From positions 137,148-201,147 of the forward strand of contig JBAZUU010000002.1 in NCBI GenBank assembly GCA_041661275.1: a DNA stretch of 64,000 nucleotides, in the 5' to 3' direction. The notes beneath the pieces are model-generated. The model saw only the letters and a list, made by a program, of their open reading frames with translations. It made no database searches and was not told the DNA's origin. The translations under genes were made by a program, and so were the position numbers. Each line of letters begins with the position of its first letter. Position 1 is the stretch's first letter. Source of the stretch: Parcubacteria group bacterium (lineage in GTDB: Bacteria; Patescibacteriota; Minisyncoccia; Moranbacterales; UBA2206). Below, piece by piece: positions 2,616 to 18,435 of the stretch.

Positions 2616-2732
2616 ATGTTATTACGAAGCTTTCGGGATTTCGCGAGAGAACCAATTTTTGTGAGAGCGGCCATAGTAGTATTTTTGGTTGTTGTAGTTG
2701 GAGCAATGGTTGCGGGCATTTTTTTGCCATAA
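2616..2732 (+). CDS. Small hydrophobic peptide (38 aa), hypothetical
   Basis: Strong SD AAGGAGG 7 nt upstream of the ATG; single TM-like segment; hairpin plus T-run downstream (~2790-2815). Confidence 0.3.
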   Translation: MLLRSFRDFAREPIFVRAAIVVFLVVVVGAMVAGIFLP

Positions 2733-3123
2733 ATCTTCAAGAAAGCATCTTGGTCGGAGTTTCTGCTCCTGAATCCCGCTTGTCGGGAAACAAAGCAGGG
2801 TTCCGACTTTTTTAAATCAAAAAGACCCCGGCGATAACGCTGGAGCCTTTTCTTTCCCTTAATAATCTGCCAATCATAAGTAATTTTGGAACTGAGTAAG
2901 TACTAGAAAAATTTGATGTACATGTTAATCAGGAACTAGTCATTGGCAAGTTGTTAAGGGAAAATCGTACTATCTTTTATTACGACTACCCATTATACAC
3001 CCAAATTAACAAAAAGTCAAGGGCATGTTTGCCGACTGCCAAATTGCGGCTTGTTTAAGGGGAAATATGGCAGGCGAAAAGTTGTACTATTTTAATTGAG
3101 AAATAAATATAGAATAGAAGGGG

Positions 3124-3333
3124 GTGATATATATGATGATGGCAAGTTGCAAGGATATGGGCGCAGATTGTGATTTTGTGGCCAAAGGCGAAACAGCATA
3201 TGATGTGAAAATGAAAATGATGGAGCACGCCAAGATGGATCACAAAGATATGATGGCCAAGATGGAAAGTATGTCTGATGACGAAAAGAAGAAGAATTGG
3301 GAGATGATGCTGAAAAATATGAAATGCGCTTAA
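3124..3333 (+). CDS. DUF1059-family small protein; true start probably one of the ATGs at 3133-3141
   Basis: SCKDMGADCDFVAKGETAYDVKMKMMEHAKMDH matches the DUF1059 pattern (C..G..C.F..R/K.ET..E....AH...H). GGGGGTG RBS precedes the ATG cluster. Confidence 0.55.
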   Translation: MIYMMMASCKDMGADCDFVAKGETAYDVKMKMMEHAKMDHKDMMAKMESMSDDEKKKNWEMMLKNMKCA

Positions 3334-3458
3334 TCTAGCTAGTACTATTTAAATAGTATTTACCAAAAACAACTTCCGCGAGGGGGTTGTTTTTGGTTGG
3401 GGGTGTACAGCTGCTTGGTTTTGTGGGATAATAGAGGTGTAAAAAATAAAATAAAAAA

Positions 3459-6400: not shown

Positions 6401-7724
6401 CGCAAAGCCACGCATTCGCATGTCTCTCTATTCTCCACTGGATATCCATCTCTATGATGAAAATGGAAATCATACTGGACCAAAAAAAGTTACTGATGAA
6501 AATGGAAAAGAGGGAATAATTTTTGAAGAGAATATTCCCAACAGCTACTATTATCAATTCGGTGATCGTAAATATGTTGGTGTGCCAGGTGAAGAAAACA
6601 TCCATATGACTATGGATGGATACGATAATGGAGCTTATACATTGAAGATGGAAGAAGTCATGGAAACTGTCGGCGGCGAAGAAATAATATCTCATACTAC
6701 CTTTGCCGATCTTCCAGTATCGCCTGAAACATCTGTAGCAGTAGATATTCCAGAATCAGGACTTGACAGCTTGTCCAATCTGGAAGCGGATTTTGATGGA
6801 AATGGAGAGGGTGACTATGAAGTTATCCCAATTCCTAATGGTGAAGCTACTCTTCCTGATATGATTCCCCCGCAAACCGCGATTGAGTTATCAGGGACGG
6901 AGGGTGATAATAATTGGTATGCCAGCGATGTCGCGGTGAAGCTTACTGCTGTGGACAATGAAGGAGGATCGGGAGTGAATACAATTTCTTATTCTTTTGA
7001 CAATGGTGCGTCATGGCAAGAATATTTTAATTCGGTGAACATCTCCGGAGAAGGAATATTTAGTTTTCAATATTTTTCCACTGATAAAAAGGGGAACAAG
7101 GAAGAGATAAAAACAGAAAGCATAAAAATAGACAGGACTGCCCCGGAAGCAAAATTTACATTTGATCAAAACAATCAGAAATTTAATATTATTGGGATGG
7201 ATAATTTGTCGCAAAATATTGCGGTTGAGACAGAAGAGCAGGCAGTCAATTCAAAGCCGGAAACCAAAAGGGGGATATTTTTCTGGATTTTTGATATAAT
7301 CAAGAACAGAAAGAAAGAAAAAAACATCATTGCGACTTTGCGTGATGAAGCCGGGAATGAAACGAAAATCAATTTTACGAAGAAAGAAAATAATGATCAT
7401 TTTATCAATATTTTCCCGGAGTCTATTTCGTATAATGGCGTAAAAACGGATTTTTCCAAATCATCGTTGCAATATAAATGGCTTCTGAATTGGAGAAAGA
7501 AAAACTATGTTCTTTTCGGATCGCACATTATGGCAGGAGATGAGCTTTTGGAATCGCACTATCTCCCCAAAAGAAATGAAACGTGGATAATGCAAAGGCC
7601 AAGAGAGCTTGATGACGATGATAATGACGATGACGCGGAGAGGCGTCCAGTCTGGAAAAAGCTTTCTGGAATGGTTGTGCCCTTCATCCAAACGGAACAA
7701 GGAAAAATTGAAATAAAATATTAA
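3459..7724 (+). CDS. Giant secreted/surface protein: signal anchor, parallel beta-helix repeats (~aa 150-480), LCAT/PGAP1-like alpha/beta-hydrolase (lipase/acyltransferase) domain (~aa 540-760), Ig-like domain (~aa 1148-1230), acidic C-terminus
   Basis: N-terminal hydrophobic segment. Repeated NNxxYGI / NxxxGIxL beta-helix units. YDWR motif and AHSNGG (GxSxG) nucleophile elbow. WYASDVAVKL..SGV..ISYSFDNGASW..IDRTAPEA Ig-like motif. Confidence 0.8.
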   Translation: MKLIKRGLVKKIARYFFVLIFSFLFFSISTTFAQDTENSFHIPGTLEGTGKHFEITDSEYLNISLDSSERIDVRIESMPEMIILQLKSSPDNDSAEINISGLSSKTTYHKYEDDYQNYAPLITNEYGAFSFEQDLTQDHIIFIQPRKSTKIIKDDATGYDCGGRNGVAGIGNWNASSKTCTLNKDVQETIQINSDDITLDGNGHNVTGSNTGNGIYALGKRNIIKNINVSNFSYGIYLRNSGSVTASTATNNYYGIYVYGNSANPPGVTISNNSIFNNHNYGISLFYTKDNEISDNIVGPGHWVGLFQTSSENSIIERNDFFENQYGLNLNGDYNNLNGNTIRNNSTSNFYLESSDMSTNSIGTDNTIDGMPIYYEKNVSNETYDSINMGAFYCANCQNITLKNISFSGKEAQMFFWHTDNSFVEEISSADKSIDARLYYSSNNTIAKNTIGSIRIYKSSNENKIYNNNIMTDDSGYTIANSSFGNLFNEPLPTGGNYWKANESTCRDLNNDKICDTPFYFDTGEDDYPWIQENDFSMPSGNSNVMFLPGIKASRLYKKDSGGGEDQLWEPNYFGNDLEDLTLDENGESVNSVYTRDVIDEIGTSWLGLGPNIYKTFINQLALLKNDGTINDYNIFAYDWRQSVEDIAENGTPYNGEIKSAIAELESLAGSSKSKKVTLVAHSNGGLLAKAIMLELEKTGKADKVDKIVFVGTPQMGTPKAILSMLYGYDESAIFGTLISESASRKLVENMPGAYGLLPSEKYFERTEEPFINFLSENTKYKSFMDAYQSGIDSFGEFREFLTGSGDGREKPDENDVESENKLSGNLFDQAGELHDNLDGWTAPENIQIIEIAGWGLDTITGVDYTEKEKAECYSYLGYIVPSCAGTGKYEPVYEPKFTVDGDKVVTAPSALMLPEGSNVKRYWVDLYRYNHDPIVNKNQNHSSIFEVSSIQQFLSDIIKNTSNPPLPEYIKTARPNDYNNAKPRIRMSLYSPLDIHLYDENGNHTGPKKVTDENGKEGIIFEENIPNSYYYQFGDRKYVGVPGEENIHMTMDGYDNGAYTLKMEEVMETVGGEEIISHTTFADLPVSPETSVAVDIPESGLDSLSNLEADFDGNGEGDYEVIPIPNGEATLPDMIPPQTAIELSGTEGDNNWYASDVAVKLTAVDNEGGSGVNTISYSFDNGASWQEYFNSVNISGEGIFSFQYFSTDKKGNKEEIKTESIKIDRTAPEAKFTFDQNNQKFNIIGMDNLSQNIAVETEEQAVNSKPETKRGIFFWIFDIIKNRKKEKNIIATLRDEAGNETKINFTKKENNDHFINIFPESISYNGVKTDFSKSSLQYKWLLNWRKKNYVLFGSHIMAGDELLESHYLPKRNETWIMQRPRELDDDDNDDDAERRPVWKKLSGMVVPFIQTEQGKIEIKY

Positions 7725-7747
7725 TAATTAATAAAGAAAATAAATTT

Positions 7748-8125
7748 ATGGAAAAGACATATCTGTGGAGAATTTTAACAATTTTACTTAGCCTTGTGCT
7801 ATTAGGTGCAGCGTATCTTATGAATGGACGAAATATTCTTTATTTGGAATCAATTAGTAGCCCATTGTTTGTTTTGAGTATGGCCATGTTGTTAGTTTCT
7901 ATCATCCTTCTTTTTATCAACGACAGAATTTTTCTCAAATGGCTTCGGTTTGCCATAGTTTGGGTTATTTTGTCAATAATTCTAATCGCGCTTACTCCCG
8001 AATATTCCGGCGGTTGGGTTCCTATGAATCCTGATCGGGAGTCGGTTTCCATTTGGATGGGTTCGCTTTTTGTTGTTTTGAGCCTGGCTAAAATTATTTG
8101 GGATTCATGGAAAGAGAAAAAATAA
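7748..8125 (+). CDS. Small polytopic membrane protein, hypothetical
   Basis: About four hydrophobic helices; no recognisable family. Confidence 0.5.
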   Translation: MEKTYLWRILTILLSLVLLGAAYLMNGRNILYLESISSPLFVLSMAMLLVSIILLFINDRIFLKWLRFAIVWVILSIILIALTPEYSGGWVPMNPDRESVSIWMGSLFVVLSLAKIIWDSWKEKK

Positions 8126-8320
8126 TAGGAAAAAAACACTGGGTATTCAGTCTAGTAGTGCTCGTGGTTGTTATAATCGCGGTATTAATTATTGTAGACA
8201 TGTTTTCAATTGGAACAATTTATTAATTTTGAAAAAAATATTTGGGACACATGGAAAGAAAAAAATAATCCCCAATCTTAAATTAAGGTTGAATCCTTGA
8301 GCGACGCTCAAGGACTGCTC

Positions 8321-8351
8321 ATAAAAACATAAAAAGGAGCGCGAACTCCTT
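8321..8351 (-). terminator. Candidate rho-independent terminator for the HNH gene
   Basis: Hairpin AAGGAG-CGCGAA-CTCCTT at 8334-8351, followed on the minus strand by TTTTATGTTTTTAT. Confidence 0.4.
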
Positions 8352-8384
8352 CCTATGCTTGCTACAGGTTAGACTTAGATAAAT

Positions 8385-8633
8385 CTAAACGCCGTAACTA
8401 CGTGTTTTTTCATGACAGGGAACGCATAATATTCGACAATTATCAACGGTATCAGAACCGCCAGCTTCTTGTGAAATAATATGGTGCGCATGCCATTTCC
8501 GATCCTCAATTTTATTTTGAGGATCAAGCATCTTGTTGCATCGACCATTATGATTGCAGGCGCCTAAGGTGCATTCACACTTTCCGCCCGCTCTACGCCA
8601 CGCTTGGTTGATGACTTCTTGAGAAAAAGCCAT
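8385..8633 (-). CDS. HNH endonuclease (small, stand-alone)
   Basis: C.C..C.HNGRC ... HAHHII..GGSD..DNCRILCVPCH zinc-finger/HNH signature. Confidence 0.8.
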   Translation of the reverse strand: MAFSQEVINQAWRRAGGKCECTLGACNHNGRCNKMLDPQNKIEDRKWHAHHIISQEAGGSDTVDNCRILCVPCHEKTRSYGV

Positions 8634-8799
8634 TGCGTTACATTATGGCCTTACCCCTAGAATAAAGTCTTGTTGGTTATCCGACTTCTAGGGAATCGGA
8701 AAGACGTCTTCAATTTAATATTATAGCAGCTGTATTATTTTAGTCAAGTGCATTTATGCACAACTATAAAGTTATCCACAATCACTATAATAAAGGTAG

Positions 8800-8836
8800 T
8801 TGACGTGTACAAACAGTCATATATAATGTATATATG
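8800..8836 (+). promoter_or_regulatory. Sigma70-like promoter of the lexA-like gene (TTGACG-N16-TATAAT), apparently leaderless, overlapped by palindrome CATATATA-ATG-TATATATG
   Basis: -35 at 8800-8805 and -10 at 8822-8827. The ATG at 8834 is ~7 nt after the -10. Perfect 8+3+8 palindrome at 8818-8836. Confidence 0.45.
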
Positions 8837-9472
8837 AGTATAAAACTAACGCCAAAACAAAGGAACGTTTTAGAATTTATTTACACATTTTTAGAAAATT
8901 CTGGCTTTCCGCCGTCAATTTCCGAGCTAAAAGAAGAGCTCAATGTTTCCTCCAACCAATCAGTTCTGAATTTTTTGGATACGCTTGAAAAAAAGGGCTA
9001 TATAAAAAGAGAAAAGGATCAAGCAAGAGGGCTAAAAATTTTACCGATGGGAGCCAGGGAAATTGGCAAAGACGTTTTAATAAAAGTAGTTGGAACAAGT
9101 GCGGCTGGACCATATATAGAATCCTACGCAAATGCATTTTCGTTTTATCCAGTACAAAAAGGAATTTTGGAAAAAGAAAATATTGCTGATTCCCAGGAGA
9201 AAGTTTTTGTTATTCAGGTTCAGGGTGATTCAATGACAAATATTGGAATAGAAAATGATGATATGCTTTTGGTGAAAGAAGCTAAGGAATTTAAAAGCGG
9301 TGATATTGTGGTGGCGGAAACTGATGAGGGTGCGACTGTCAAAAGATTTATTGCTGAAGGTGGAAAAAGATATTTGAAGCCTGAAAATCCAAACTACGAA
9401 AATATTCTAATAATACCTGGCGAAGTGAGATTTAGAGGAAGAGTAATTTTAAATTTAAGTAAAATAAAATAA
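8834..9472 (+). CDS. lexA: LexA-family repressor (winged-helix DNA-binding domain + S24 peptidase)
   Basis: N-terminus matches the LexA DNA-binding domain (LTPKQRNVLEFI..SGFPPSISEL). QVQGDSM Ser nucleophile and a downstream Lys form the S24 dyad. Confidence 0.85.
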   Translation: MSIKLTPKQRNVLEFIYTFLENSGFPPSISELKEELNVSSNQSVLNFLDTLEKKGYIKREKDQARGLKILPMGAREIGKDVLIKVVGTSAAGPYIESYANAFSFYPVQKGILEKENIADSQEKVFVIQVQGDSMTNIGIENDDMLLVKEAKEFKSGDIVVAETDEGATVKRFIAEGGKRYLKPENPNYENILIIPGEVRFRGRVILNLSKIK

Positions 9473-9476
9473 CAAG

Positions 9477-11435
9477 ATGCTCGAAAAAAATTTGCCTGTC
9501 GAAATAATCAACAAAGTATTCCGTGATCCGGATATGCAATTTGGTTTGGCAAATTTTAGCGATGTGAAGCTGGACCAGGTTTTGAAAATTTTTGAAGGCA
9601 AGGAAGATAAGGGAAAATTCTATGCCAAATGCTTAAAGCGAGGGAAAGACATTTTGATCTATAATGAAGAAAAAAAATTAGGAAAACCTGAGGAGATAAT
9701 CCGCCAGCTCATGGTCTATAAGCTGGTTAATTTTTATAAATACCCTATCGACCGCATCGATGTTGAAGTCGACGTGCAATTCGGACGTGAAATTGGAAAA
9801 AAAAGAGCAGACATTGTGGTTTATCGGGAAGACTTGAAAACTCCCTATTTACTGGTTGAGGTTAAAAAGCCGGATGTGAAAGATGGATTGGGACAACTCA
9901 AAAGCTACGCCAATGCCACTGGCGCGCCGATCCTGATTCTGACCGACGGAAAAATACAAAATAATATTCTTAGAACGGATCCAAATCTTTTTGAAGACCT
10001 GCCGGAGATTCCAAAATTTAACGAAACAGTTGATGACGTACGCAAGGAAAAAATTTCTTACGCAGATTTAAAAGAAGTTGAAAACTTAAAACAGCTTATT
10101 TATGATCTTCAAGAAGTGGTGTTGGCAAACAGTGGCGTCGATTCATTCGACGAAATTTTTAAACTAGTTTACGCCAAACTTTATGATGAGCTGGAAACTC
10201 CAAGAAGTGATAATAGAAGATTTAGGGTTATCGCTGGCGTAACCAATAAGGAAAATCTAGCTAATATCTGTCGTCTATTCGAAGACGCTAAAAAAGAATG
10301 GAAAGATGTTTTCAAGCCTAACGATGAAATAGAAATTCCGGAAAATGTTATTGTTCCGGCAGTTTCACTTCTTCAGAAATTCCGACTTTTTGGTTCTAAC
10401 CTCCAAGTTATTGATGACGCCTTTGAATATCTCATAAACTTGGATGCCAAAGGAGAAAAGGGGCAATATTTTACTCCCCGTCATGTTATCGATATGGCGG
10501 TCAAAATGCTGGCGCCTACTCCCAAGGATTCCATAATTGACACAGCTGCCGGATCTTGCGGGTTTTTACTTCATGCTATGCAATATGTTTGGGACAAAGA
10601 GATTAACAAAGAAAAATACGGTGATGATTATAAAACCAGACAGAAAAATTATGCCGAAAAGCAATTATTTGGAATTGATTTTGATCCTCGCAGCGTAAAA
10701 ATTGGAAAAGCGATGATGCTCATTGCAGGGGACGGAAAAACCAATGTTACATTTGCAAATTCTCTTGATAGCGAAAATTGGAGCGATGACGCTCGGACGA
10801 GATTCCGCCCGTTTCTTGCTAACTCTAAGGACAGTGAAGAAAACCGAAAAAACCAGGAACGAATGACTGATTTTAATTTTGATATTGTTATGACCAATCC
10901 GCCCTTTGCCGGAGAGATAAAGGGCGTGCTTCTCAATCGCTATGACTTGGGTTTCAAATGGGATAAGGAATTTCAAAAAACATCGAAGCATCAAAACAAG
11001 GTTTCTAGGGATATTCTTTTCATTGAGCGAAATTTGAATTTCCTAAAGCCTGGCGGACGAATGGCAATTGTTTTGCCGCAAGGGGTTTTCAATAATACCA
11101 ATTCCGAATATGTCCGGCGGTTTATTATGAATAAAGCGAAAATCTTAGCAGTGGTCGGACTTCATGGAAATACTTTTAAGCCGCACACCGGAACAAAAAC
11201 ATCGGTTTTGTTTTTGGAAAAGTGGGCCGGAAAACCACTTGAAGATTGTCCAATTTTTATGGCTGTTTCGAAACGCGGCGGAAAAGACACGTCAGGAGAT
11301 TATGTTTATAGGAAAGATAGAGAGGGGAATGTGATGTATGATGCAAGTGGGAAGAAAATCATTGATCATGATTTGGATGAGATTGCGGAGGAGTTTTTGA
11401 AATTCACAAATGAAAGCTATCTTAAATTGCAATAA
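9477..11435 (+). CDS. Bifunctional restriction endonuclease-N6-adenine DNA methyltransferase, BcgI subunit A-like (Type IIB/IIG-like): N-terminal HsdR_N-type PD-(D/E)XK domain + gamma-class MTase
   Basis: ADIVVY..LLVEVKK nuclease core (~aa 110-135). AdoMet motif I DTAAGSCGFLL precedes motif IV NPPFAG. 652 aa. No helicase/HsdR gene nearby. Confidence 0.75.
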   Translation: MLEKNLPVEIINKVFRDPDMQFGLANFSDVKLDQVLKIFEGKEDKGKFYAKCLKRGKDILIYNEEKKLGKPEEIIRQLMVYKLVNFYKYPIDRIDVEVDVQFGREIGKKRADIVVYREDLKTPYLLVEVKKPDVKDGLGQLKSYANATGAPILILTDGKIQNNILRTDPNLFEDLPEIPKFNETVDDVRKEKISYADLKEVENLKQLIYDLQEVVLANSGVDSFDEIFKLVYAKLYDELETPRSDNRRFRVIAGVTNKENLANICRLFEDAKKEWKDVFKPNDEIEIPENVIVPAVSLLQKFRLFGSNLQVIDDAFEYLINLDAKGEKGQYFTPRHVIDMAVKMLAPTPKDSIIDTAAGSCGFLLHAMQYVWDKEINKEKYGDDYKTRQKNYAEKQLFGIDFDPRSVKIGKAMMLIAGDGKTNVTFANSLDSENWSDDARTRFRPFLANSKDSEENRKNQERMTDFNFDIVMTNPPFAGEIKGVLLNRYDLGFKWDKEFQKTSKHQNKVSRDILFIERNLNFLKPGGRMAIVLPQGVFNNTNSEYVRRFIMNKAKILAVVGLHGNTFKPHTGTKTSVLFLEKWAGKPLEDCPIFMAVSKRGGKDTSGDYVYRKDREGNVMYDASGKKIIDHDLDEIAEEFLKFTNESYLKLQ

Positions 11436-12264
11436 ATATATGAATAACCCAAAAAGTACCTTGGGTCAGAAATGGATAAATTTTTTAAATGCTGTTTTTA
11501 GTCCAGTTCCAATTTTTTCATTATTAGGCGGATTAGGGCTTCTTTATTTGTCGGTGCACTATAAAGATGATGGCAGATTTTCAATCCTAATTAATTTGGC
11601 GGGCTCTCTTTTGATTGGTATCGGCGGTGCCTTTATTAAAGACAGATATGTTGAACTATCAAATGAATCAATTCTTATAAAAAAAGGTCAATCGGCAGTA
11701 AGAAATTTAGAATCTATCGCAAAACAAATAGAACAAATAAGATCTTGGCTTAAGTTTTTTATTTCTAGTAAAACATCAGATAAAAGAGATCTTGAAGAAA
11801 TCAATCGTCATTTAAGCACTACCGAAATGAACATTGCATCTGGGTTAGCAGATTGGATTGATATTGTTCCAGAGTTAAATAAAAAGGCGGAAGAAATGGC
11901 TGAAAAAGCAAAAAGCTATGAAGAAGTTGTTAAAACCTATGTTGAGGAATTATTTAAAAATAAAAAGAAGCTTTTAGAAGTGGGAGAGAATAAAAAACTT
12001 AAAGAACGATTACAAGAAAGCATAAAAAACCTGGAAAAAGAAGTAAGAGATTTAAAAAAATATAGGCCAGAATTTACTGCGAGTGGAATAATTAGTAGCT
12101 CATCCTTTGGTTCAAATGGAAACGGTCTTTCTTATTTAAATCGAAACTCTCTTGCACGTGGCCTATCAAAAACTTGTTCAAATTGCGGCAGAGTATTCGA
12201 AGATGATATAAATAGGCTTACCATCGGTCCGGATTTGTGCGAGGAATGCAGAAAAACAATATGA
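11410..12264 (+). CDS. Membrane-anchored coiled-coil protein with C-terminal CxxC..CxxC zinc ribbon, unknown function; alternative start at 11439
   Basis: Two N-terminal TM helices, a long K/E-rich predicted coiled coil, and CSNCGRVF..CEEC. Overlaps both flanking RM genes by 26-28 nt (translational coupling). Confidence 0.5.
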   Translation: MKAILNCNKYMNNPKSTLGQKWINFLNAVFSPVPIFSLLGGLGLLYLSVHYKDDGRFSILINLAGSLLIGIGGAFIKDRYVELSNESILIKKGQSAVRNLESIAKQIEQIRSWLKFFISSKTSDKRDLEEINRHLSTTEMNIASGLADWIDIVPELNKKAEEMAEKAKSYEEVVKTYVEELFKNKKKLLEVGENKKLKERLQESIKNLEKEVRDLKKYRPEFTASGIISSSSFGSNGNGLSYLNRNSLARGLSKTCSNCGRVFEDDINRLTIGPDLCEECRKTI

Positions 12265-13598
12265 TAAACTGTTCAATAATCCAAAAATCCCATCTTGAAG
12301 GCGCGATGCGATTAGATGCTGAATATTATTGTAGCGATTCATTAATCGGGTCTAATTTTCATCTAGGCAAAGACGTTGTTTCTTTTGTTCAGTATGGTAC
12401 ATCAAAAGAATTAAACGAGGAAAATAGAGGCTATCCGGTTTTGCGGCTCAATGAATTTGAGGATTGGTTCGCGGGACAACCGACGAAATATTGCAATAAG
12501 ATTAGTGAACAAACTTTTAATGGTTTAAAGCTCAAAAAAGGGGATGTATTAATTTGCAGAACCAATGGGAATCCTAAGCTTGTAGGAAAAGCTGCTCTCG
12601 TTGCGGAAAATACCAACATTGCTTTTGCTTCGTATTTATTTAGAGTTCAAGCTGATTCTTTAAAAATTAATTCCGCCACACTTACTGCGTTTTTAAATTC
12701 TAAAATCGGCAGAGCAGAGATTGAAAAATTTATTATGCCTAGCATTCAATCTAACTTCAGCCCTGCTCAATTTAGACAAATTAAAATACCTATTTTTCCA
12801 CCAGCCTTACAAAAAGAAATTGAAACGCGTTTATTTGACTCATATGAACTTTTAGCCGATTCGAAATCTTCTTATCAGCAAGCTGAAGATTTACTATTAG
12901 AAGAGCTGGGATTAAAAAATTTTGATTTTGAAAAAATATTGTCATCAGTTGTTAATTATTCCGATGTTCTAGAAGCTGAAAGAATAGACGCAGAATATTT
13001 TCAGCCGAAATATGAAAAACTGATTTCGAAAATAAAGGAAAGAAATTATAAAACCTTGCCGGAAATTATAGAAAATGTGCCTGCTGTTTTTAACGCCGCT
13101 TCAAAACCGTCAGAAAATTTCAAATACGTAGAGTTATCAAATATTAATCCTTCCGTTGGAATAATTGATGGTTTTTCAGAAGTATCAGGAAGAGAAGCGC
13201 CAGGAAGAGCGAAAAGAATATTAAAGTCTGGCGATGTAATAGTTTCAAGTGTAGAAGGATCGCTGGAAAAAGTTGCGCTGGTTGATAAAGAGCAAGATGG
13301 ACATCTTGCATCAACAGGATTTTTTCAATTGCGAAGTGATAAAATTTTGCCAGAAGTTTTACTTGTTATAGCCAGGAGTTTGGTTTTTCAAATGCAACTC
13401 GAAAAGCAATGTGCTGGAACAATTCTTACTGCCGTGCCAAAAGAGGCGATAAAAAATATTGTTGTACCAATCTTACCGAAAGAAACGCAGCAAAAAATCG
13501 CTGATCTTGTGCGACAGTCGCACAAAGCGCGGAAAAAGGCGAAAGAGCTTTTAGAAGAAGCGAAAAGGAAAGTTGAAGGGATGATAGAGAATAAATAA
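12237..13598 (+). CDS. hsdS: Restriction-modification specificity subunit (HsdS/BcgI-B-like, two target-recognition domains)
   Basis: Duplicated halves (RLDAEYY.. / RIDAEYFQP..). Central and C-terminal conserved helical spacers (IPIFPPALQKEIETRL..; ILPKETQQKIADLVR..). Confidence 0.85.
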   Translation: MRGMQKNNMINCSIIQKSHLEGAMRLDAEYYCSDSLIGSNFHLGKDVVSFVQYGTSKELNEENRGYPVLRLNEFEDWFAGQPTKYCNKISEQTFNGLKLKKGDVLICRTNGNPKLVGKAALVAENTNIAFASYLFRVQADSLKINSATLTAFLNSKIGRAEIEKFIMPSIQSNFSPAQFRQIKIPIFPPALQKEIETRLFDSYELLADSKSSYQQAEDLLLEELGLKNFDFEKILSSVVNYSDVLEAERIDAEYFQPKYEKLISKIKERNYKTLPEIIENVPAVFNAASKPSENFKYVELSNINPSVGIIDGFSEVSGREAPGRAKRILKSGDVIVSSVEGSLEKVALVDKEQDGHLASTGFFQLRSDKILPEVLLVIARSLVFQMQLEKQCAGTILTAVPKEAIKNIVVPILPKETQQKIADLVRQSHKARKKAKELLEEAKRKVEGMIENK

Positions 13599-13851
13599 TT
13601 CTATGGAACAAAAAGAATTTGAGAAATTTATATTGTACGTATTGATTGTAGTGTTTTTTACCGAGCAACTTCCTTTTGACATGAATAATGAGAAAAAACA
13701 CCAAAGCCCGCATATACCAGAGGAAAATCGGACTTCTGCAGTCTTGGGTGTTCCCACATATTCTATGTCTATCACAGCCTCTCCCTCACAAGCGCCAGAT
13801 GAGTAAGAATAGTCGAAAAGAAAAAGAAAAGAAAAAGGGGTCAAGAAAAGA

Positions 13852-13898
13852 AAAAGGGGTCAAGTACCTTTAATTACGTAATTAATTACTTACAAAAA
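13852..13898. repeat. Island gene-terminal motif, copy 1 (GGGTCAAGTACCTTTAATTACGTAATTAATTACTTACA)
   Basis: Near-identical to the 5' parts of copies at 14891.. and 18261... Contains the palindrome TTAATTACGTAATTAA. Confidence 0.6.
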
Positions 13899-14210
13899 AA
13901 TAAAAATTATCTTCTTGCTGTTTTGATGTTCCTTCTTGGCATCGGCATTGGGCTTTGGATGGGGAAAATAAAATACTCCCAAAATAAAAGCATAGTTTCG
14001 ACAAGTTAGCAGTTGTCAACTGATGCTCTACGTATGTAAGCAATATTTAGGCTTGCCATAGCCAAAAAATCAAGCTTAGGTACATATCCTACTCCAGAGT
14101 ATACTACTTATGAGTACGATAAATCAATCGAGGACCGTTCTCGATTAGTTGTTAAAAAAATGTATGCACGTTTATGACAGACAAAGAATTGATGGGAATG
14201 AAAAATTTTT

Positions 14211-14861
14211 ATGCGCATAATTGCTAAAGCGATACAATATCTGATGCTGAAGATTATGAAAAGGCTTGGTCCTTCGGATGATGACAGGCCGGCTGTTGCT
14301 GCGGCGGACCAGTTGTTGGATAAATTGCTTCCGTCTGCTTTCGCGGTTTTTCGCGATGAGAGGTTTAGGGAAGTGTGTAATTTTGGGAAAATCAGCCAGG
14401 TCGAGCATGATAGGATCTTTAACGAGCTGGAAGTGTCCGCTATCATCCTTTGTCAGTTTTGTATTGATGATCGTATGGCGATTATCGGAAATCGCGATTT
14501 TCATTTTTGGGAAACCGTCCGCGAGAATATGCCAAAAGTTTTTGTGGATAAGCTTCTGGAATATGGCGTGAAAAAAAGCGATGCTGACTTATATTTCGAC
14601 CTTATCAAGATGAGACATGACCAATATTCGAAAATCGCCGATGGCAACCGCGATCATATGGAAAATGACAAGCTATTTTCAGAATATAAAGATAGCCAGG
14701 CAGCTATGGATACGCTAAATAGGGTGCAGGCGATAATTGTGGGTACGGCGGATCATATTCGCCGGGGAAAATTAAAAAAAGGGGACGAATTGATGCGGCT
14801 GCTCAGGTCATGGCTGTTTCCCCTTGATATGGAAATTTCAAAATTTATTCGGAAACTATAA
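14211..14861 (+). CDS. Hypothetical protein (216 aa), no recognisable family; locally GC-richer
   Basis: Longest ORF in the region with a coding-like profile. Overlapping minus-strand ORFs are judged spurious. Confidence 0.45.
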   Translation: MRIIAKAIQYLMLKIMKRLGPSDDDRPAVAAADQLLDKLLPSAFAVFRDERFREVCNFGKISQVEHDRIFNELEVSAIILCQFCIDDRMAIIGNRDFHFWETVRENMPKVFVDKLLEYGVKKSDADLYFDLIKMRHDQYSKIADGNRDHMENDKLFSEYKDSQAAMDTLNRVQAIIVGTADHIRRGKLKKGDELMRLLRSWLFPLDMEISKFIRKL

Positions 14862-14890
14862 TCGGGATCATACAGAAATGATTCAAAAAA

Positions 14891-15017
14891 GGCCAAGTAC
14901 CTTTAATTACGTCCCGGTTAATTAAAAATTAACCACAGTAGTATAATAAATTAACTACGTGGCAGGCGGGATAAATAATTAACTACTTACATAATAAAAA
15001 ACCAAAAGTTATCCACA
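14891..15017. repeat. Island gene-terminal motif, copy 2 (extended), ending in AAGTTATCCACAGACGG (DnaA-box-like TTATCCACA at 15009-15017)
   Basis: GGCCAAGTACCTTTAATTACGT ... AATTAACTACTTACA ... ACCAAAAGTTATCCACAGACGGATGACCATTTTA is shared with the copy at 18261-18345. Confidence 0.6.
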
Positions 15018-15019
15018 GA

Positions 15020-15220
15020 CGGATGACCATTTTACTGTCTCCGGTAAGATGGTCAAAAACATCAATAATAAAGATCAATTTATCGGAGCCGGTAAAATGA
15101 TGAAAATAACTAAAAATAGAAATCATAAGACAAAAGACCATTTTCGTTATATCAAGAAAATGGTCAAAAAGAGCAATTGGGAAACAGAGGATCATTTTGT
15201 CAGTGCCGACAAAATGATAA
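15020..15220. repeat. Tandem array of four palindromes GA(C/T)CATTTT-N6..10-AAAATG(G/A)TC spaced ~55 nt apart
   Basis: Arms at 15025-35/15045-55, ~15073-15100 (degenerate), 15136-45/15156-65 (perfect 10 bp) and 15189-15200/15207-17 (perfect 11 bp). Confidence 0.6.
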
Positions 15221-15300
15221 AAATCGATCCATGAGACCTGGGAAAGTCTTTCTTGTTAGAAATAACGGGGAGAGTTATCCACAGGCGATAATATTGCCAT

Positions 15301-15344
15301 AAGCTGGTTATAGTGATATGATATCACTGTAAGCAGCTTTTTTA
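15301..15344 (+). terminator. Terminator/attenuator-like hairpin with nested perfect palindrome AGTGATAT-G-ATATCACT, followed by TTTTTT, 5 nt upstream of the recQ start
   Basis: Outer stem AAGCTG/CAGCTT, inner palindrome 15312-15328, T-run 15338-15343. Confidence 0.45.
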
Positions 15345-15348
15345 AATC

Positions 15349-16950
15349 ATGCTTGAAAAACAATTAGAAAAATATTTTAACTTTACCGAATTTCGTCCCG
15401 GTCAAAGGGAAATCGTGGAAACTATTATGTCCGGTCGTGATGTGGTGGCTCTTATGCCGACTGGCGGGGGAAAATCTCTTTGCTATCAATTGCCGGCGAT
15501 CATGAGTGACAAAATTTCGGTCGTCATTTCTCCGCTTATCGCGCTTATGAAAGATCAGGTAGACAGTCTCAACGCGCGCGGAATTCCGGCCACTTTTATA
15601 AACAGCAGTTTAACTTCAGATGAAATAGGAAAACGAATCGAAGACATTAAAAATAACCGGACAAAAATAATTTATGTGGCGCCGGAAAGATTTGGAAACG
15701 CCTCCTGGCAAAAATTGTTTTCCGAACTCGATGTTTTTTTGTTCGCGGTTGATGAAGCTCATTGTGTGTCGCAATGGGGTCATGATTTTCGTCCGGACTA
15801 TCTGGCCATAAAAAAATATATTGCCAACTTGAAGAATCGTCCGGTGGTGGCTGCCTTTACGGCGACGGCCACGCCGGAAGTTAAAAATGATATCATCGAA
15901 CGCCTGGAACTGCAAAATCCCGAAGTTTTTATCCGTGGTTTTGATCGGCCAAATTTGAAATTTTTTGTGGAAAGCAACTTGAAACCGAAGGAAAAATACG
16001 CGGAAGTTTTGCGGATAATTAAGGCTATGGCCGGATCGGGGATAGTTTACGCTTTGACGCGAAAAGACACTGAATTTATCGCCGAATTTTTGCGTCAAAA
16101 TAATATAGTAGCCGCGGCTTATCACGCGGGAATGGAGGCGGAGAAGCGAAAACGGATCCAGGAGGAATTTATGGACAATAAATTCAAGGTAATTGTGGCA
16201 ACCATTGCTTTTGGCATGGGAGTGGACAAAGCGGATATCAGATTTGTGATCCACAGCGGTATGCCCGGAAGCATAGAAGGCTATTATCAGGAAGCCGGAA
16301 GAGCGGGACGCGATGGCGAACAAGCCTTTTGTATCTTGCTTCATGGCAAAAAAGACGTCAGTACCCACAAGTTTTTTATTCGTATGAGTCAGGACGAAAT
16401 GTTTCTGCAAAATAAGACATGGGAAGAGATAAAAAGGGTAGTTGGCATAAAATATGACCGGCTGGAAAAAATGATCGAATATGCTACTCGCCCCAATTGC
16501 CGCCGAAAGATGATCTTGAAATATTTTAGCGATCCGGATTACGAAAGACATAAGGAAAATTGCCGAGGGTGTGATTTTTGCCTGGATTGGAAAAAATCAG
16601 CCGGAGATGCCCAGAAAAGAAAGGAGGCTATCCGTGGTAACAAAAGTTTTCTATCTTCCACTGTTAAAATATCAGCCGATTATTATGAGAAAGGAACGTC
16701 TCTTGAAAATATAGCCAGGATAAGGGGACTTGGTTTAAGGACAATCATTGATCATCTGATCGACTGGTACGCCACCGGAGGAAATCTGCGAGTGGAAGAT
16801 CTTATCAACGCGGAAGAAGAAGGGCTGATAATTTCTGCTATTGAAAAGATCGGAAGCCGAGACAGGCTAAAGCCGATAAAAGATATTCTGCCGGAAGAGA
16901 TCGGTTATGAAAAGATAAAGCTGGTGATAGTTAAGTGGGAAAGAAAGTAG
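15349..16950 (+). CDS. recQ: ATP-dependent DNA helicase RecQ (short form with zinc-binding RQC and C-terminal HTH-like region)
   Basis: FRPGQREIVETIMSGRDVVALMPTGGGKSLCYQLPA; DEAHCVSQWGHDFRPDY; C..C..C.C zinc motif. Confidence 0.9.
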   Translation: MLEKQLEKYFNFTEFRPGQREIVETIMSGRDVVALMPTGGGKSLCYQLPAIMSDKISVVISPLIALMKDQVDSLNARGIPATFINSSLTSDEIGKRIEDIKNNRTKIIYVAPERFGNASWQKLFSELDVFLFAVDEAHCVSQWGHDFRPDYLAIKKYIANLKNRPVVAAFTATATPEVKNDIIERLELQNPEVFIRGFDRPNLKFFVESNLKPKEKYAEVLRIIKAMAGSGIVYALTRKDTEFIAEFLRQNNIVAAAYHAGMEAEKRKRIQEEFMDNKFKVIVATIAFGMGVDKADIRFVIHSGMPGSIEGYYQEAGRAGRDGEQAFCILLHGKKDVSTHKFFIRMSQDEMFLQNKTWEEIKRVVGIKYDRLEKMIEYATRPNCRRKMILKYFSDPDYERHKENCRGCDFCLDWKKSAGDAQKRKEAIRGNKSFLSSTVKISADYYEKGTSLENIARIRGLGLRTIIDHLIDWYATGGNLRVEDLINAEEEGLIISAIEKIGSRDRLKPIKDILPEEIGYEKIKLVIVKWERK

Positions 16951-16990
16951 ATATTTTTTGACAGAGACGCCAAAAAACGGGAGAATAGAG

Positions 16991-17014
16991 AAGTAAGTAA
17001 CTAATTACTTATGC
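16991..17014. repeat. Partial copy of the island gene-terminal motif after recQ (AAGTAAGTAACTAATTACTTATG)
   Basis: Resembles the TAATTAATTACTTACA core of the other copies and sits ~45 nt after the recQ stop. Confidence 0.35.
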
Positions 17015-17222
17015 GCAGATTTGTGAAATTGGAAGAGGAAAGATAGAATATAATTTGGGGGAAGATTGAGGAAAAACTAAAGACGACGCTGAAAGAAAAA
17101 TGTTAAAAAAATTAGTATTTTAGGAACAAGTGATAATGGTCTTGTTGATGACAAATTCAAGAAAACATCAGGTTTAACAAAAGATTTTTTATTAAGCATA
17201 AGAAAGTGGAAAAATAAAAATT

Positions 17223-18242
17223 ATGAAAAATAATATATTAAATAACAATAATTCCGGCGAAATAATTATATATGAAGGCGCGGATGGGGCGCCTAGCATT
17301 GAAGTGCGCGTTGAGGGTGAGACGGTGTGGCTGTCACAATCACAACTCGTTGAGCTTTTTCACTCAAGCAAGGCAAATGTGAGCGAGCATATCAAGCACA
17401 TATTTAAAGAGGCTGAATTAAGCCAAGATGCAGTTGTTCGGAATTTCCGAACAACTGCGAGTGATGGAAAAAATTACAACATTGAGCACTACAATCTCGA
17501 CATGATTATCTCTTTGGGTTATAGAATAAAGTCGGATATTGCCACACATTTTCGCCAGTGGGCGACTTCGCGACTTCGTGAATACCTCGTTCAAGGATTC
17601 ACAATGAATGATGAGTTTTTGAAAAACAATGGCGGTGGCTTATATTGGAAGAAACTCTTGTCTCGCATCCGTGATATTCGATCCAGTGAAAAGATGCTGT
17701 ATAGACAAGTCCTGGATCTCTATGCCACAAGCGCGGATTATGATCCTAAATCTCTACATTCAATTAAGTTTTTCAAAATTGTGCAAAACAAATTGCACTA
17801 CGCCGCGCATAAACAGACAGCATCAGAAGTTATTTATAATCGCGCCGATAGTGATAAAAAATTTATGGGTTTGACGGTTTTTGCAGGAGATTTGCCAGTA
17901 CTCGAAGAAGTGAGAATTGCTAAAAATTATTTGTCCGCGCAAGAGTTGGAAAGATTGAACAGACTTGTCTCGGCATATTTCGAATTGGCGGAATTGCGCG
18001 CTATGGATCAGCAAGTAATGCATATGGCGGATCATATTGCATCTTTAGATAAATTACTTTCTGATTACGGCGAAGGTGTTTTGATTGATGCTGGAAAAGT
18101 AACGCATAAAAAAGCCATAGAAAAAGCAGAAAGTGAATACAAAAAATATCAAACTAAAACACTTTCGCCCGCAGAAGGAGCGTATTTGGAAAGCATTAAA
18201 ACTTTAGAGAAAAAGGTTAAAAATAATAAACCAAAGAAATAA
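17223..18242 (+). CDS. RhuM-family (virulence-associated) protein
   Basis: ETVWLSQSQLVELF..HIKHIFKE..KNYNIEHYNLDMIISLGYRIKS matches the RhuM family signature block. Confidence 0.8.
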   Translation: MKNNILNNNNSGEIIIYEGADGAPSIEVRVEGETVWLSQSQLVELFHSSKANVSEHIKHIFKEAELSQDAVVRNFRTTASDGKNYNIEHYNLDMIISLGYRIKSDIATHFRQWATSRLREYLVQGFTMNDEFLKNNGGGLYWKKLLSRIRDIRSSEKMLYRQVLDLYATSADYDPKSLHSIKFFKIVQNKLHYAAHKQTASEVIYNRADSDKKFMGLTVFAGDLPVLEEVRIAKNYLSAQELERLNRLVSAYFELAELRAMDQQVMHMADHIASLDKLLSDYGEGVLIDAGKVTHKKAIEKAESEYKKYQTKTLSPAEGAYLESIKTLEKKVKNNKPKK

Positions 18243-18260
18243 TATGAGGAGGGAGAAAAA

Positions 18261-18363
18261 GGGTCAAGTACCTTTGGTTTTGTAATTAATTACTTGCATA
18301 TACGAAAGACCAAAAAGTTATCCACAGACGGATGACCATTTTAACCGGTTGGTTAAAATGGTC
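18261..18363. repeat. Island gene-terminal motif, copy 3, with DnaA-box-like TTATCCACA (18318-18326) and perfect palindrome GACCATTTTAACC-GGTT-GGTTAAAATGGTC (18334-18363)
   Basis: GGGTCAAGTACCTTTGG..TAATTAATTACTTGCA..ACCAAAAAGTTATCCACAGACGGATGACCATTTTA. Confidence 0.6.
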
Positions 18364-18435
18364 TGACAGGTTTGTTTTTAGGCGGAAAATGTGCTAAAAA
18401 TAATATATAGCGAACGTTAATTTTCCAGGACTTTT

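What the first reader, a model, noticed from the sequence alone, without database searches (positions are those of the whole stretch)
13852..18363. A conserved ~40-100 nt motif follows the stop codon of every plus-strand island gene
GG(G/C)(T/C)CAAGTACCTTT(A/G)(A/G)TT..TAATTAATTACTT(A/G)CA occurs after hsdS (13852-13898), after ORF 14211-14861 (14891-14996, with an inserted GGTTAATT-AAAA-ATTAACC palindrome) and after rhuM (18261-18298). A degenerate version follows recQ (16991-17014). Two copies continue into an identical ACCAAAAGTTATCCACAGACGGATGACCATTTTA block. The cores are perfect palindromes (TTAATTACGTAATTAA; GTAATTAATTAC). The gene-by-gene punctuation resembles cassette boundaries (attC-like or recombination sites) or a shared terminator/insulator module.
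Basis: seen in the sequence. Interest (0 to 1): 0.6.

Follow-up and report, generated by a model that had tools for sequence, protein, structure and literature searches.

The report
Conserved junction repeat in CPR defence island
A 24-base AT-rich repeat sits at the joints between swappable gene modules in a restriction-modification island of an uncultured Parcubacteria bacterium. It is identical in a distantly related island, so it is probably a recombination or junction signal of an undescribed kind; the "identical block" beside it is a duplicated piece of the neighbouring gene's control region.

Summary
The repeats are real, but the finding merges three separate things.

- **Box 2** (AATTACGTAATTAATTACTTACA[T]) is the conserved core. 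It follows orf67, orf216 (split by a 62-nt insert) and rhuM, with a degenerate copy after recQ. An orthologous LexA-methylase-HsdS island from another Patescibacterium has five copies. All are co-oriented and lie in the spacers between unshared small genes. Identity is 23-26 nt, although the shared proteins are only 39-64% identical. One 24/24 copy lies on a phage/plasmid-like contig. None was found elsewhere in the window or in 439 kb of distant RM loci.
- **Box 1** (GGYCAAGTACCTTT) is specific to this lineage.
- **The "identical block"** is the native upstream region of the adjacent glycosyltransferase gene. It holds an AGTTATCCACAG box and a covarying hairpin. It is present in a relative that lacks the island. 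Homology resumes about 14 nt after the rhuM copy.

The pair "island end plus chromosomal flank" is therefore duplicated around recQ-rhuM, which looks like an insertion footprint.

Box 2 is not attC-like, not a canonical dif site, not a terminator and not a REP. No recombinase is encoded in the 64 kb. The best reading is a module-junction or recombination element (confidence about 0.45). The main rival is a cis-regulatory or insulator signal.

The parts
13872..13895 (+). Box 2, copy A (AATTACGTAATTAATTACTTACA), 66 nt after the stop of orf67. It sits at the position orthologous to a box 2 copy in the related island L029.
   Evidence: (26/26 identity to L029 1676-1701)
13858..13871 (+). Box 1, copy A (GGTCAAGTACCTTT), forming a small AAAGG/CCTTT stem. 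Its 5' edge is tandemly duplicated (19-nt unit, 13824-13864).
14891..14992 (+). Copy B after orf216. Order: box 1 (14891-14904), left part of box 2 (AATTACGT, 14905-14912), a 62-nt insert with its own stems (14913-14974), then the right part of box 2 (AATTAACTACTTACAT, 14977-14992).
   Evidence: (z -2.4)
16989..17013 (+). Degenerate box 2 after recQ (AAGTAAGTAACTAATTACTTATG), 39 nt after the stop codon.
18262..18300 (+). Copy C after rhuM: box 1 (18262-18275), GGTTTT, then the box 2 core GTAATTAATTACTTGCAT. It is the last island sequence before the chromosomal flank, which resumes at 18313.
18309..18435 (+). Native upstream region of the GT4 glycosyltransferase gene. It holds the AGTTATCCACAG box (18316-18327), a 13-bp hairpin (18334-18363) and a promoter region. 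It is orthologous to L014 5922-6046, from a relative without the island.
15001..15055 (+). Duplicate of the first 55 nt of the GT4 upstream region (box plus hairpin), directly after copy B. Together with copy B it forms the left member of a direct repeat of about 110 nt. The right member is 18256-18364. The pair brackets recQ-rhuM.
   Evidence: D1, D2; 87% to L014
15073..15219 (+). Three further hairpins of the same family (GAYCAWTTT-N12-AAAATGRT) at 15073-15102, 15136-15165 and 15190-15219.
   Evidence: (z -11.8 for 14995-15345)
15273..15328 (+). Third AGTTATCCACAG box (15273-15284). Next come the recQ promoter TTGCCA-17-TATGAT (15294-15322) and an overlapping perfect palindrome, AGTGATATGATATCACT (15312-15328).
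8770..8833 (+). Left end of the conserved LexA-RM unit: AGTTATCCACAA box (8770-8781), 19 nt upstream of the lexA promoter TTGACG-16-TATAAT (8800-8827). L029 has the same layout.
8126..18312 (+). Inserted region relative to the closest island-free relative. Genes: HNH (-), LexA, HSDR_N_2/N6_Mtase methylase, coiled-coil protein, HsdS, orf67, orf216, RecQ, RhuM. The left limit is approximate because flank homology is lost. The right limit is exact.

Best explanation
The repeat has three layers.

**1. Box 2 is a junction element.** The sequence is AATTACGTAATTAATTACTTACA(T). It is two overlapping palindromes, or equivalently two 12-nt direct units TAATTACGTAAT/TAATTACTTACA. It marks the joints between gene modules of a LexA-linked type I-like restriction-modification island family in Parcubacteria. 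I infer that a DNA-binding protein, most likely a site-specific recombinase encoded elsewhere, recognises it, and that modules are gained, lost or exchanged there. The modules include orf216, recQ and rhuM here. In the related island they include a GNAT acetyltransferase, an AbrB-like protein, small membrane proteins and a lycopene-cyclase-domain protein. That would leave every module followed by one co-oriented copy.

**2. Box 1 is a lineage-specific extension.** GGYCAAGTACCTTT travels with box 2 in this genome only.

**3. The "identical block" is chromosomal, not part of the element.** It is the native control region of the neighbouring GT4 gene, made of an AGTTATCCACAG box and a hairpin. 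The unit [quoted passage not shown] occurs twice in direct orientation around recQ-rhuM. That is the expected footprint if this segment entered by a single crossover (Campbell-type, site-specific or homology-driven) within the shared 33-nt core.

**Shown:** the anatomy, the conservation, the junction positions, the duplication, and the native status of the block. **Inferred:** that recombination, rather than expression control, is the selected function, and the identity of the enzyme.
For: - **Copies in the window.** Only three full copies plus one degenerate copy exist in 64 kb. All are on the + strand, 19-66 nt after stop codons of island modules.
- **Orthologous island L022/L029.** Identity to the window proteins is LexA 59%, methylase 52%, HsdS 39% and orf216 64%. 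It carries five co-oriented box 2 copies, at L029 1678, 2197 (variant), 7921 (variant), 8283 and 9466. Three are identical to copy A over 23-26 nt. Otherwise blastn aligns only coding segments, at 64-87%.
- **Position of those copies.** They lie in spacers of 0-30 nt between ORFs. One stop codon lies inside the element, and two ATGs are formed by its last bases.
- **What they flank.** The flanked genes are absent from the window. Only LexA, the methylase, HsdS and orf216 are shared. No copy lies inside the conserved operon.
- **Orthologous position.** Copy A and L029 7921 both sit after the small ORF that follows hsdS. Sequence to the right of them is unrelated.
- **Right junction.** The relative L014 (GT4 88% identical) lacks the island. 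Homology resumes at window 18313, about 14 nt after copy C.
- **Duplicated junction.** Copy B is followed by a second copy of that flank. Its hairpin is closer to L014's than to copy C's, so it is not a recent local copy.
- **Variable content.** Between hsdS and rhuM the window has orf216 and recQ. L023 has orf216 directly followed by rhuM. A third island has two small ORFs and then rhuM.
- **Mobile replicon.** A 24/24 copy lies on a phage/plasmid-like contig that encodes Phage_rep_O.
- **Negative control.** No box 2-like site (up to 5 mismatches in 24) was found in 439 kb of distant RM loci or in the other related loci held.
- **Assembly behaviour.** Short-read assemblies of the same strain break at these repeats.
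Against: - No integrase, transposase or Xer-type gene is present in the 64 kb window or in the 10.6 kb of L029.
- No excised or empty-site variant, and no circular junction, was observed.
- Only two islands with DNA and one mobile-element copy support the generalisation. The public scans used a pattern that required box 1, so they could not find box 2-only islands.
- The element is short and very AT-rich. It carries stop codons in two + frames and all three - frames. It can therefore only survive between genes, which by itself explains part of the "after stop codons" pattern.
- The AGTTATCCACAG box also lies upstream of lexA in both islands and upstream of an unrelated nuclease gene at 61.6 kb. 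It is more likely a promoter-associated operator than an att core.
- Homologous exchange or segmental duplication could produce the same direct repeats without any dedicated site.
Confidence: 0.45

Rival explanations
1. Box 2 is a cis-acting expression signal kept after each transcription unit. It could be an operator for an island or host DNA-binding protein, an insulator that stops translation (stops in five of six frames), or an RNA processing or stability site. On this reading its position at module joints is a by-product, because such a sequence can only exist between genes.
For: - The double-palindrome architecture is typical of dimeric repressor sites.
- It contains stop codons in 2 of 3 frames on the + strand and 3 of 3 on the - strand.
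- It has a strictly constant orientation relative to the genes and abuts stop and start codons.
- Exact conservation across diverged islands implies protein or RNA recognition, not necessarily recombination.
- lexA here appears leaderless, with the -10 box ending about 6 nt before the ATG. Very short 5' regions such as those after box 2 are therefore usable.
Against: - It is absent from lexA's own promoter and from all joints inside the conserved operon.
- There is no G+C-rich stem with a T-run, and folding is not better than shuffled sequence for copies A and C.
- No -35/-10 pair in the gene direction is conserved within the element.
- It does not explain why copy C sits at the very edge of the inserted DNA, or why the edge plus flank is duplicated.
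- It is absent from the other 54 kb of the window and from related loci.
Confidence: 0.28
2. Read on the minus strand, the repeat is an antisense promoter module. The reverse complement of box 1 gives a -35 hexamer (TTGACC) preceded by the AT-rich box 2 acting as an UP-like element. This would drive antisense RNA into the 3' end of the preceding gene, for example to silence rhuM or orf216.
For: - The promoter scan finds TTGACC-17-TATTAT at 18267-18239 (-) and TTGGCC-18-TATGAT at 14896-14867 (-).
- The reverse complement of box 1 (AAAGGTACTTGACC) matches the -35 region of the lexA promoter in 12 of 14 positions. The window has AAAGGTAGTTGACG (8792-8805) and L033 has AAAGGTGCTTGACT.
Against: - Copy A has no -10 box at the correct spacing.
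- The -10 hexamers lie outside the conserved repeat.
- Box 1 is missing from all box 2 copies of L029 and L024, so this cannot be the conserved function.
- The 12/14 match was found at a stringency where 1.3 chance hits are expected.
Confidence: 0.1
3. The copies are passive leftovers of segmental duplication or gene conversion inside one island, for example repeated use of the same 3' flank during homologous exchange between strains. They would have no function of their own.
For: - The copies in the window are 70-86% alike, and two of them extend into a duplicated chromosomal flank.
- A 19-nt tandem duplication sits at the edge of copy A.
- No enzyme is linked to the repeat.
Against: - Identity of 23-26 nt to copies in an island whose proteins are 39-64% identical, with flanks that cannot be aligned.
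- Five copies in that island and one on a phage-like contig.
- Together these require selection or active spread.
Confidence: 0.07

Closest known systems
Integron cassette arrays (attC sites; sedentary chromosomal integrons and CALINs)
   Same: Co-oriented, mostly small accessory genes (GNAT, AbrB-like, small membrane proteins, unknowns) are each followed by a copy of a conserved repeat. The repeats are homogeneous within a lineage, as Vibrio VCRs are. ORFs are packed tightly against the repeat. Arrays can occur without an integrase nearby (CALIN-like).
   Different: The repeat is 24 nt, not 57-141 nt. It has no RYYYAAC/GTTRRRY boxes. Two of three copies show no significant bottom-strand hairpin. 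No IntI, attI or Pc is present. One "module" is a 5-kb promoter-bearing operon.
Xer-dependent dif/pdif modules and IMEX tandem arrays
   Same: Simple sites of about 26-28 bp with partial dyad symmetry flank small accessory modules. They need no element-encoded recombinase. Tandem IMEX arrays are separated by direct dif-like sites. A single copy on a phage/plasmid-like replicon would fit a resolution or integration site.
   Different: There is no ATAA-N6-TTAT inner core. The locus is not at a GC-skew switch. All copies are direct, whereas pdif modules alternate in orientation. No Xer gene is visible and the host dif site is unknown.
Accessory genes embedded in type I restriction-modification loci (RhuM and similar) / defence islands
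   Same: rhuM, a helicase and unknown genes are embedded in or appended to an hsd-type operon, and the content differs between relatives. That such embedding is common in hsd loci is from my own knowledge, not from a tool result.
   Different: To my knowledge such loci are not described as having a conserved junction repeat. Here a LexA-family gene heads the operon and no HsdR is present.
REP/BIME elements and intrinsic terminators
   Same: They are palindromic, extragenic and located just after genes. The neighbouring GACCATTTT-N12-AAAATGGTC hairpins do resemble a small REP-like cluster.
   Different: Box 2 is confined to the island, not spread across the genome. Its stems are weak, no T-run follows it, and its sequence rather than its structure is conserved.

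Membership tests
Integron attC site | R''(RYYYAAC)...R'(GTTRRRY) boxes at the two ends | tested here: not met
   Read directly from the sequences of all copies. None has GTTRRRY or RYYYAAC at its ends.
Integron attC site | Imperfect single-strand hairpin of 57-141 nt | tested here: not met
   Copies A and C span about 40 nt. Folding z-scores are -0.28 and +0.20 (+ strand) and +0.26 and +0.36 (- strand). Only the insert-bearing copy B folds moderately (z -2.4).
Integron attC site | IntI tyrosine recombinase with attI and Pc next to the array | tested here: not met
   There is no Phage_integrase or other recombinase domain in any ORF of 110 aa or more in the window or in the L029 gene list. The rest of the genome is not visible.
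Integron attC site | Co-oriented cassettes, each followed by one site | tested here: met
   The window has 3 copies plus 1 degenerate copy and L029 has 5. All are co-oriented with the genes and lie in inter-ORF spacers.
Xer dif / pdif site | 28-bp 11-6-11 layout with conserved inner arms (..ATAA N6 TTAT..) | tested here: inconclusive
   By eye, a loose 11-6-11 reading is possible (TTAATTACGTA ATTAAT TACTTACAAAA, with 7 of 11 arm positions symmetric). The canonical inner ATAA/TTAT is absent. The host's own dif site is unknown.
Xer dif / pdif site | Chromosomal dif lies at the replication terminus (GC-skew switch) | tested here: not met
   Cumulative GC skew rises almost monotonically across the whole window (only brief, small dips) and shows no switch at 8-18 kb.
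Xer dif / pdif site | pdif modules are bounded by sites in alternating orientation | tested here: not met
   All copies are in direct orientation.
Rho-independent terminator | G+C-rich stem-loop followed by a T-run | tested here: not met
   The terminator scan reports no site at any copy. The stems are A/T-rich, and copies A and B are followed by A-runs.
REP/BIME | Many copies dispersed in extragenic regions across the genome | tested here: not met
   There are no copies outside 13.8-18.3 kb in 64 kb, and none in about 125 kb of related Patescibacteria loci other than the L029 island. The whole genome is not available.
MITE / IS end | Terminal inverted repeats with target-site duplication | tested here: not met
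   No inverted partner copy exists. Minus-strand hits are only self-overlaps of the palindrome.
DnaA box (for the AGTTATCCACAG part of the 'identical block') | Match to the TTATCCACA consensus | tested here: met
   Exact TTATCCACA occurs at 8772, 15009, 15275, 18318 and 61625(-). These five sites are intergenic. The 12-mer occurs 4 times against 0.01 expected. Binding by DnaA is not testable here.
DnaA box (for the AGTTATCCACAG part of the 'identical block') | Clustering at oriC next to dnaA/dnaN with a skew switch | tested here: not met
   There is no dnaA or dnaN and no skew inversion in the window. The boxes sit singly upstream of promoters.

The most novel reading that the evidence does not exclude
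Box 2 is the recombination site of a previously unrecognised cassette-capture system in Patescibacteria. On this reading a 24-nt double-palindromic site is used by a trans-encoded recombinase, possibly a Xer-like host enzyme, to assemble and shuffle small defence and accessory gene modules behind a LexA-controlled restriction-modification operon. Copies on phage/plasmid-like replicons would serve as donors.
Probability: 0.3. Interest if true: 0.75.

Novelty: new variant of a known kind. Interest (0 to 1): 0.5.

Why it matters
Candidate Phyla Radiation bacteria have tiny genomes and few recognised mobile elements, and how they acquire and reshuffle defence genes is poorly understood. A short, exactly conserved junction element that brackets variable genes next to a widespread LexA-linked restriction-modification operon would give a concrete sequence handle. 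It could be used to map gene flux in these uncultured lineages and to search for the enzyme that uses it. The methylase family has thousands of Patescibacteria homologues, many about 80% identical.

The work also corrects the finding. Half of the reported motif is host regulatory DNA: an AGTTATCCACAG box shared by the lexA, recQ, nuclease and glycosyltransferase promoter regions. That box is itself a candidate regulon signal.

Tried and rejected
- **Rfam.** Scans at gathering threshold and at E up to 5 over 13.5-18.5 kb gave nothing relevant. ARAGORN found no tRNA or tmRNA, so no tRNA-type att site is detectable.
- **Public DNA scans.** The pattern CAAGTACCTTT-N(4-30)-AATTAAYTACTT was run against GTDB genomes, JGI metagenomes and IMG/VR and gave only chance hits.
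- **Box 2 scans.** Sub-patterns run against IMG/VR gave one convincing hit (L024); the others looked like chance. Phage and plasmid BLAST gave nothing significant, and the best plasmid hit was not a pdif site.
- **IMG/VR protein scans.** The methylase profile returned 28 loci at 55% identity or less, none with box 2, which served as a negative control. The orf216 profile returned no loci.
- **Coding hypothesis.** For box 1, KGQVPLI is read in frame but has no start codon. A 13-aa mini-ORF exists only in copy C. Rejected.
- **DHFxxxxKMV ORF (15049-15234).** This reading and its weak DinD-like hit (E 0.04) are a by-product of translating the palindrome arms GACCATTTT and AAAATGGTC.
- **LexA operator idea for box 2.** The three lexA promoters share a different dyad, TGAC-N11-GTCA, and lack box 2.
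- **Patescibacteria SOS paper.** The paper on the Patescibacteria SOS regulon (PMID 28618189) is not held in the library, so the published LexA motif could not be compared.
Full report
**Source and setting**

The window is part of ENA contig ERZ27249449:k141_90163 (114.8 kb), a Parcubacteria-group (CPR/Patescibacteria) MAG. Positions 8.1-18.3 kb carry the following genes:
- an HNH gene on the minus strand;
- a tight operon of LexA, an HSDR_N_2/N6_Mtase/Eco57I methylase, a coiled-coil protein and HsdS;
- a 67-aa ORF, orf216 (no Pfam family), RecQ and RhuM.

All but the HNH gene are on the + strand. The region is embedded in a cell-envelope glycosylation cluster. No integrase, transposase or Xer-type protein is encoded anywhere in the 64 kb.

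**Check of the observation**

- GGYCAAGTACCTTT (box 1) occurs exactly three times, at 13858, 14891 and 18262, always on the + strand.
- Each copy is followed by AATTAAYTACTTRCA (13880, 14977, 18284).
- The quoted palindromes are perfect.
- In the copy after orf216, a 62-nt insert with its own stems (14913-14974) splits the AT-rich half.
- The copy after recQ (16997-17010) is a one-mismatch match to the 14-nt core.
- That core, allowing up to 2 mismatches, gives 11 hits against 1.7 expected, and 9 of them are in the island.
- The "identical" block is at 15001-15034 and 18309-18343, with a one-base length difference.

Two points are overstated. There is no copy between the four operon genes. The first copy follows orf67, not hsdS. 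As RNA or DNA, the box 1 + box 2 unit does not fold better than shuffled sequence in copies A and C (z -0.28 and +0.20). Copy B reaches z -2.4. The terminator scan finds nothing at any copy.

**The "identical block" is host DNA**

The GT4 glycosyltransferase gene just right of the island has an 88%-identical orthologue on JGI contig L014. In L014 an LCAT-like gene is followed directly by GT4, with no island. The 160-nt spacer there reads AAAAGTTATCCACAGGCGGATGACCATCTTACTGCATTCAGTAAAATGGTC and continues into the same promoter region as window 18313-18435. blastn homology starts at window 18313. More distant relatives have UDP-glucose dehydrogenase directly before GT4 and lack this element.

The block therefore has two native parts.
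- **An AGTTATCCACAG box.** It contains the DnaA-box consensus. The 12-mer occurs four times in the window against 0.01 expected.
- **A 13-bp hairpin.** Its arms are GACCATTTT and AAAATGGTC, and its inner stem changes by compensatory substitutions.

For the hairpin, six family members (five in the window and one in L014) give 91% paired cells. Five of 13 pairs have changes on both sides. None of 500 shuffles reaches the observed covariation score. Three extra hairpins of this family lie at 15073-15219. The 351-nt spacer before recQ folds with z -11.8.

The same box lies upstream of lexA (8770), recQ (15273) and a PD-(D/E)XK nuclease gene (61624, minus strand). It also lies 18 nt upstream of the lexA -35 hexamer in a second island. 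It behaves like a promoter-associated operator, not like a cassette boundary.

**The conserved core is box 2**

orf216 has a 64%-identical homologue on Logan contig SRR21359975_32 (L022/L029). That contig carries an orthologous island:

Transglut - orf101 - GNAT - AbrB-like - LexA - methylase - orf214 - orf190 - HsdS - orf77 - orf107 - orf127 - lycopene-cyclase-domain protein - orf121 - orf216 homologue

The shared proteins are only 39-64% identical. tblastn finds only LexA, the methylase, HsdS and orf216 in common. Despite this, AATTACGTAATTAATTACTTACA(T) occurs there five times (L029 1678, 2197, 7921, 8283, 9466), all co-oriented with the genes. Three copies are identical to window copy A over 23-26 nt, and two are variants.
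- Every copy lies in a spacer of 0-30 nt between two ORFs.
- One stop codon is the TAA inside the element, and two start codons are formed by its last bases (ACATG).
- The copies bracket exactly the genes that the two islands do not share.
- None lies within the conserved operon.
- One sits at the position orthologous to copy A, after the small ORF that follows hsdS. Beyond that point the two islands are unrelated.

Box 1 is absent from L029, so it is a lineage-specific extension.

Other searches were as follows.
- A 24/24 copy lies 38 nt after a gene on an IMG/VR contig that encodes Phage_rep_O, LPD38 and an M23 peptidase.
- No box 2-like site (up to 5 mismatches in 24) occurs in 439 kb of distantly related RM loci.
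- None occurs in the rest of the window or in the other related loci.
- None appears at significant levels in annotated phages or plasmids.

**Junction anatomy**

Copy C ends at 18300 and chromosomal homology resumes at 18313. Box 1 + box 2 plus a spacer of about 12 nt ending in ACC is therefore the right terminus of the inserted DNA.

Copy B has the same arrangement: a spacer ending in ACC, then AAAAGTTATCCACAG and the hairpin. Its hairpin matches L014 at 87% and is closer to L014's than to copy C's.

The direct repeats 14885-15055 and 18256-18364 thus bracket the hairpin cluster, recQ and rhuM, and they share a 33-nt identical core. This is the pattern left by a single-crossover (Campbell-type) insertion at a pre-existing "island end/chromosome" junction. 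It could also arise by exchange with a relative that had orf216 as the last island gene.

Gene content between hsdS and rhuM differs among relatives. L023 has orf216 directly followed by rhuM. A third island, for which no DNA is held, has two small ORFs and then rhuM. Short-read assemblies of the same strain break at these repeats.

**Interpretation**

Exact conservation of 23-26 nt, where all other non-coding sequence has diverged beyond alignment, means that box 2 is recognised as a sequence. Several features fit a module-junction or recombination site best:
- its restriction to joints between variable modules;
- its constant orientation;
- its presence at the very edge of the insertion;
- the duplicated junction;
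- a copy on a mobile replicon.

It resembles integron attC arrays and Xer-dependent dif modules in how it appears to work. It fails their membership tests: no R/L boxes, no significant hairpin in two of three copies, no IntI, no canonical dif core, no location at a skew switch, and no alternating orientation.

Three limits apply.
- No recombinase is in view and no polymorphism at the site was observed.
- The element's stop-codon content (2 of 3 frames on the + strand, 3 of 3 on the - strand) means it can only persist between genes.
- A cis-regulatory or insulator role therefore remains a serious rival.

An antisense-promoter reading of box 1 (TTGACC on the minus strand) is possible for two copies. 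It cannot be the conserved function, because box 1 is missing elsewhere.

**Verdict**

The cassette-boundary idea is partly supported for box 2. It is not supported for the attC or terminator readings, and it is wrong for the "identical block". The element appears undescribed, and I file it as a new variant of repeat-punctuated cassette arrays. Confidence in the recombination reading is about 0.45, and interest is moderate.

Noticed in passing
window 8770-8781, 15007-15018, 15273-15284, 18316-18327, 61624-61635(-); L014 5926-5937; L029 2449-2460: An AGTTATCCACAG box (DnaA-box consensus inside it) lies upstream of, and co-oriented with, lexA, recQ, GT4 and a PD-(D/E)XK nuclease gene. There are 4 exact 12-mers against 0.01 expected. 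A partial inverted copy (GGATGA, GATAA or TGGATA) usually follows 4-10 nt later. It is a candidate operator for a small regulon rich in DNA-repair genes.
   Followed up: partly
window 15025-15054, 15073-15102, 15136-15165, 15190-15219, 18334-18363; L014 5944-5973: A family of 30-nt hairpins (GAYCATTTT-N12-AAAATGRTC) shows compensatory changes in the inner stem. Four copies are tandemly arrayed before recQ, and that 351-nt spacer folds with z -11.8. One copy is native to the GT4 leader. Function is unknown (REP-like, or a structured leader).
   Followed up: partly
window 15049-15234 (+) and 14983-15195 (-): ORFs across the hairpin array read DHFxxxxKMV four times, because GACCATTTT translates to DHF and AAAATGGTC to KMV. 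This gives a weak DinD-like hit (E 0.04). A gene caller annotated the minus-strand ORF. Both ORFs are probably artefacts of the palindromes.
   Followed up: yes
window 15294-15328: The recQ promoter TTGCCA-17-TATGAT has a perfect 17-nt palindrome, AGTGATATGATATCACT, over its -10 box. This is a likely repressor operator, different from box 2 and from the lexA dyad.
   Followed up: no
window 8800-8836; L029 2479-2514; L033 331-371: Three lexA promoters share TTGAC(G/T), a TGAC-N11-GTCA dyad and a -10 box that ends about 6 nt before the ATG. This suggests a leaderless, autoregulated lexA heading the RM operon.
   Followed up: partly
L029 9896-9922 and 10618-10644 (= L022 5896-5922, 6618-6644): A different 27-29-nt perfect palindrome (ATTCTCACAYTCTCGAGAATGTGAGAAT) lies on both sides of the orf216 homologue, and the contig ends inside it. 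This is a second kind of gene-flanking repeat in the related island.
   Followed up: no
window 13824-13864: An exact 19-nt tandem duplication (AAGAAAAGAAAAAGGGGTC, 2.2 copies) duplicates the 5' edge of box 1 in copy A.
   Followed up: no
window 14913-14974: A 62-nt insert lies inside box 2 of copy B. It is closed by CCCG/CGGG and holds two internal stem-loops and an internal box-2-like unit (AATTAACTACGT). It could be a scar of two adjacent sites or a miniature insertion. There is no Rfam match.
   Followed up: partly
window 8834-13598; The LexA - HSDR_N_2/N6_Mtase methylase - variable gene(s) - HsdS operon has no HsdR. It is very widespread in Patescibacteria: 7656 methylase homologues at E<=1e-100, many about 80% identical across named candidate phyla. 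RhuM is often at its end. A LexA-family gene as the first cistron of an RM operon is unusual.
   Followed up: partly
window 2560-18435 compared with L015, L018, L019, L021: In relatives, UDP-glucose dehydrogenase is followed directly by GT4. Here 16 kb lie between them (DUF1059, a 1421-aa beta-helix/LCAT protein, DUF202, HNH and the island). In L021 the gap is about 1 kb. This intergenic spot is an insertion hotspot. A PDDEXK_3 gene (800-1198) is also inserted before the dehydrogenase.
   Followed up: partly
L024 12175-12198 (-), IMG/VR UViG_3300031949_000100: A phage/plasmid-like contig (Phage_rep_O, LPD38, M23 peptidase; GC 0.37) carries ATAATTACGTAATTAATTACTTAC, identical over 24 nt to the island element. 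It lies 38 nt after a PaaX_M (Cas2-like) domain gene and before a truncated TspO-like ORF.
   Followed up: partly
L010, L012, L013 (Logan assemblies of the same strain): Short-read contigs end about 170 nt after orf216, inside copy B and its duplicated flank, and start 122 nt before GT4. This shows that the repeats exceed the assembler's k-mer length and fragment assemblies of this island.
   Followed up: yes
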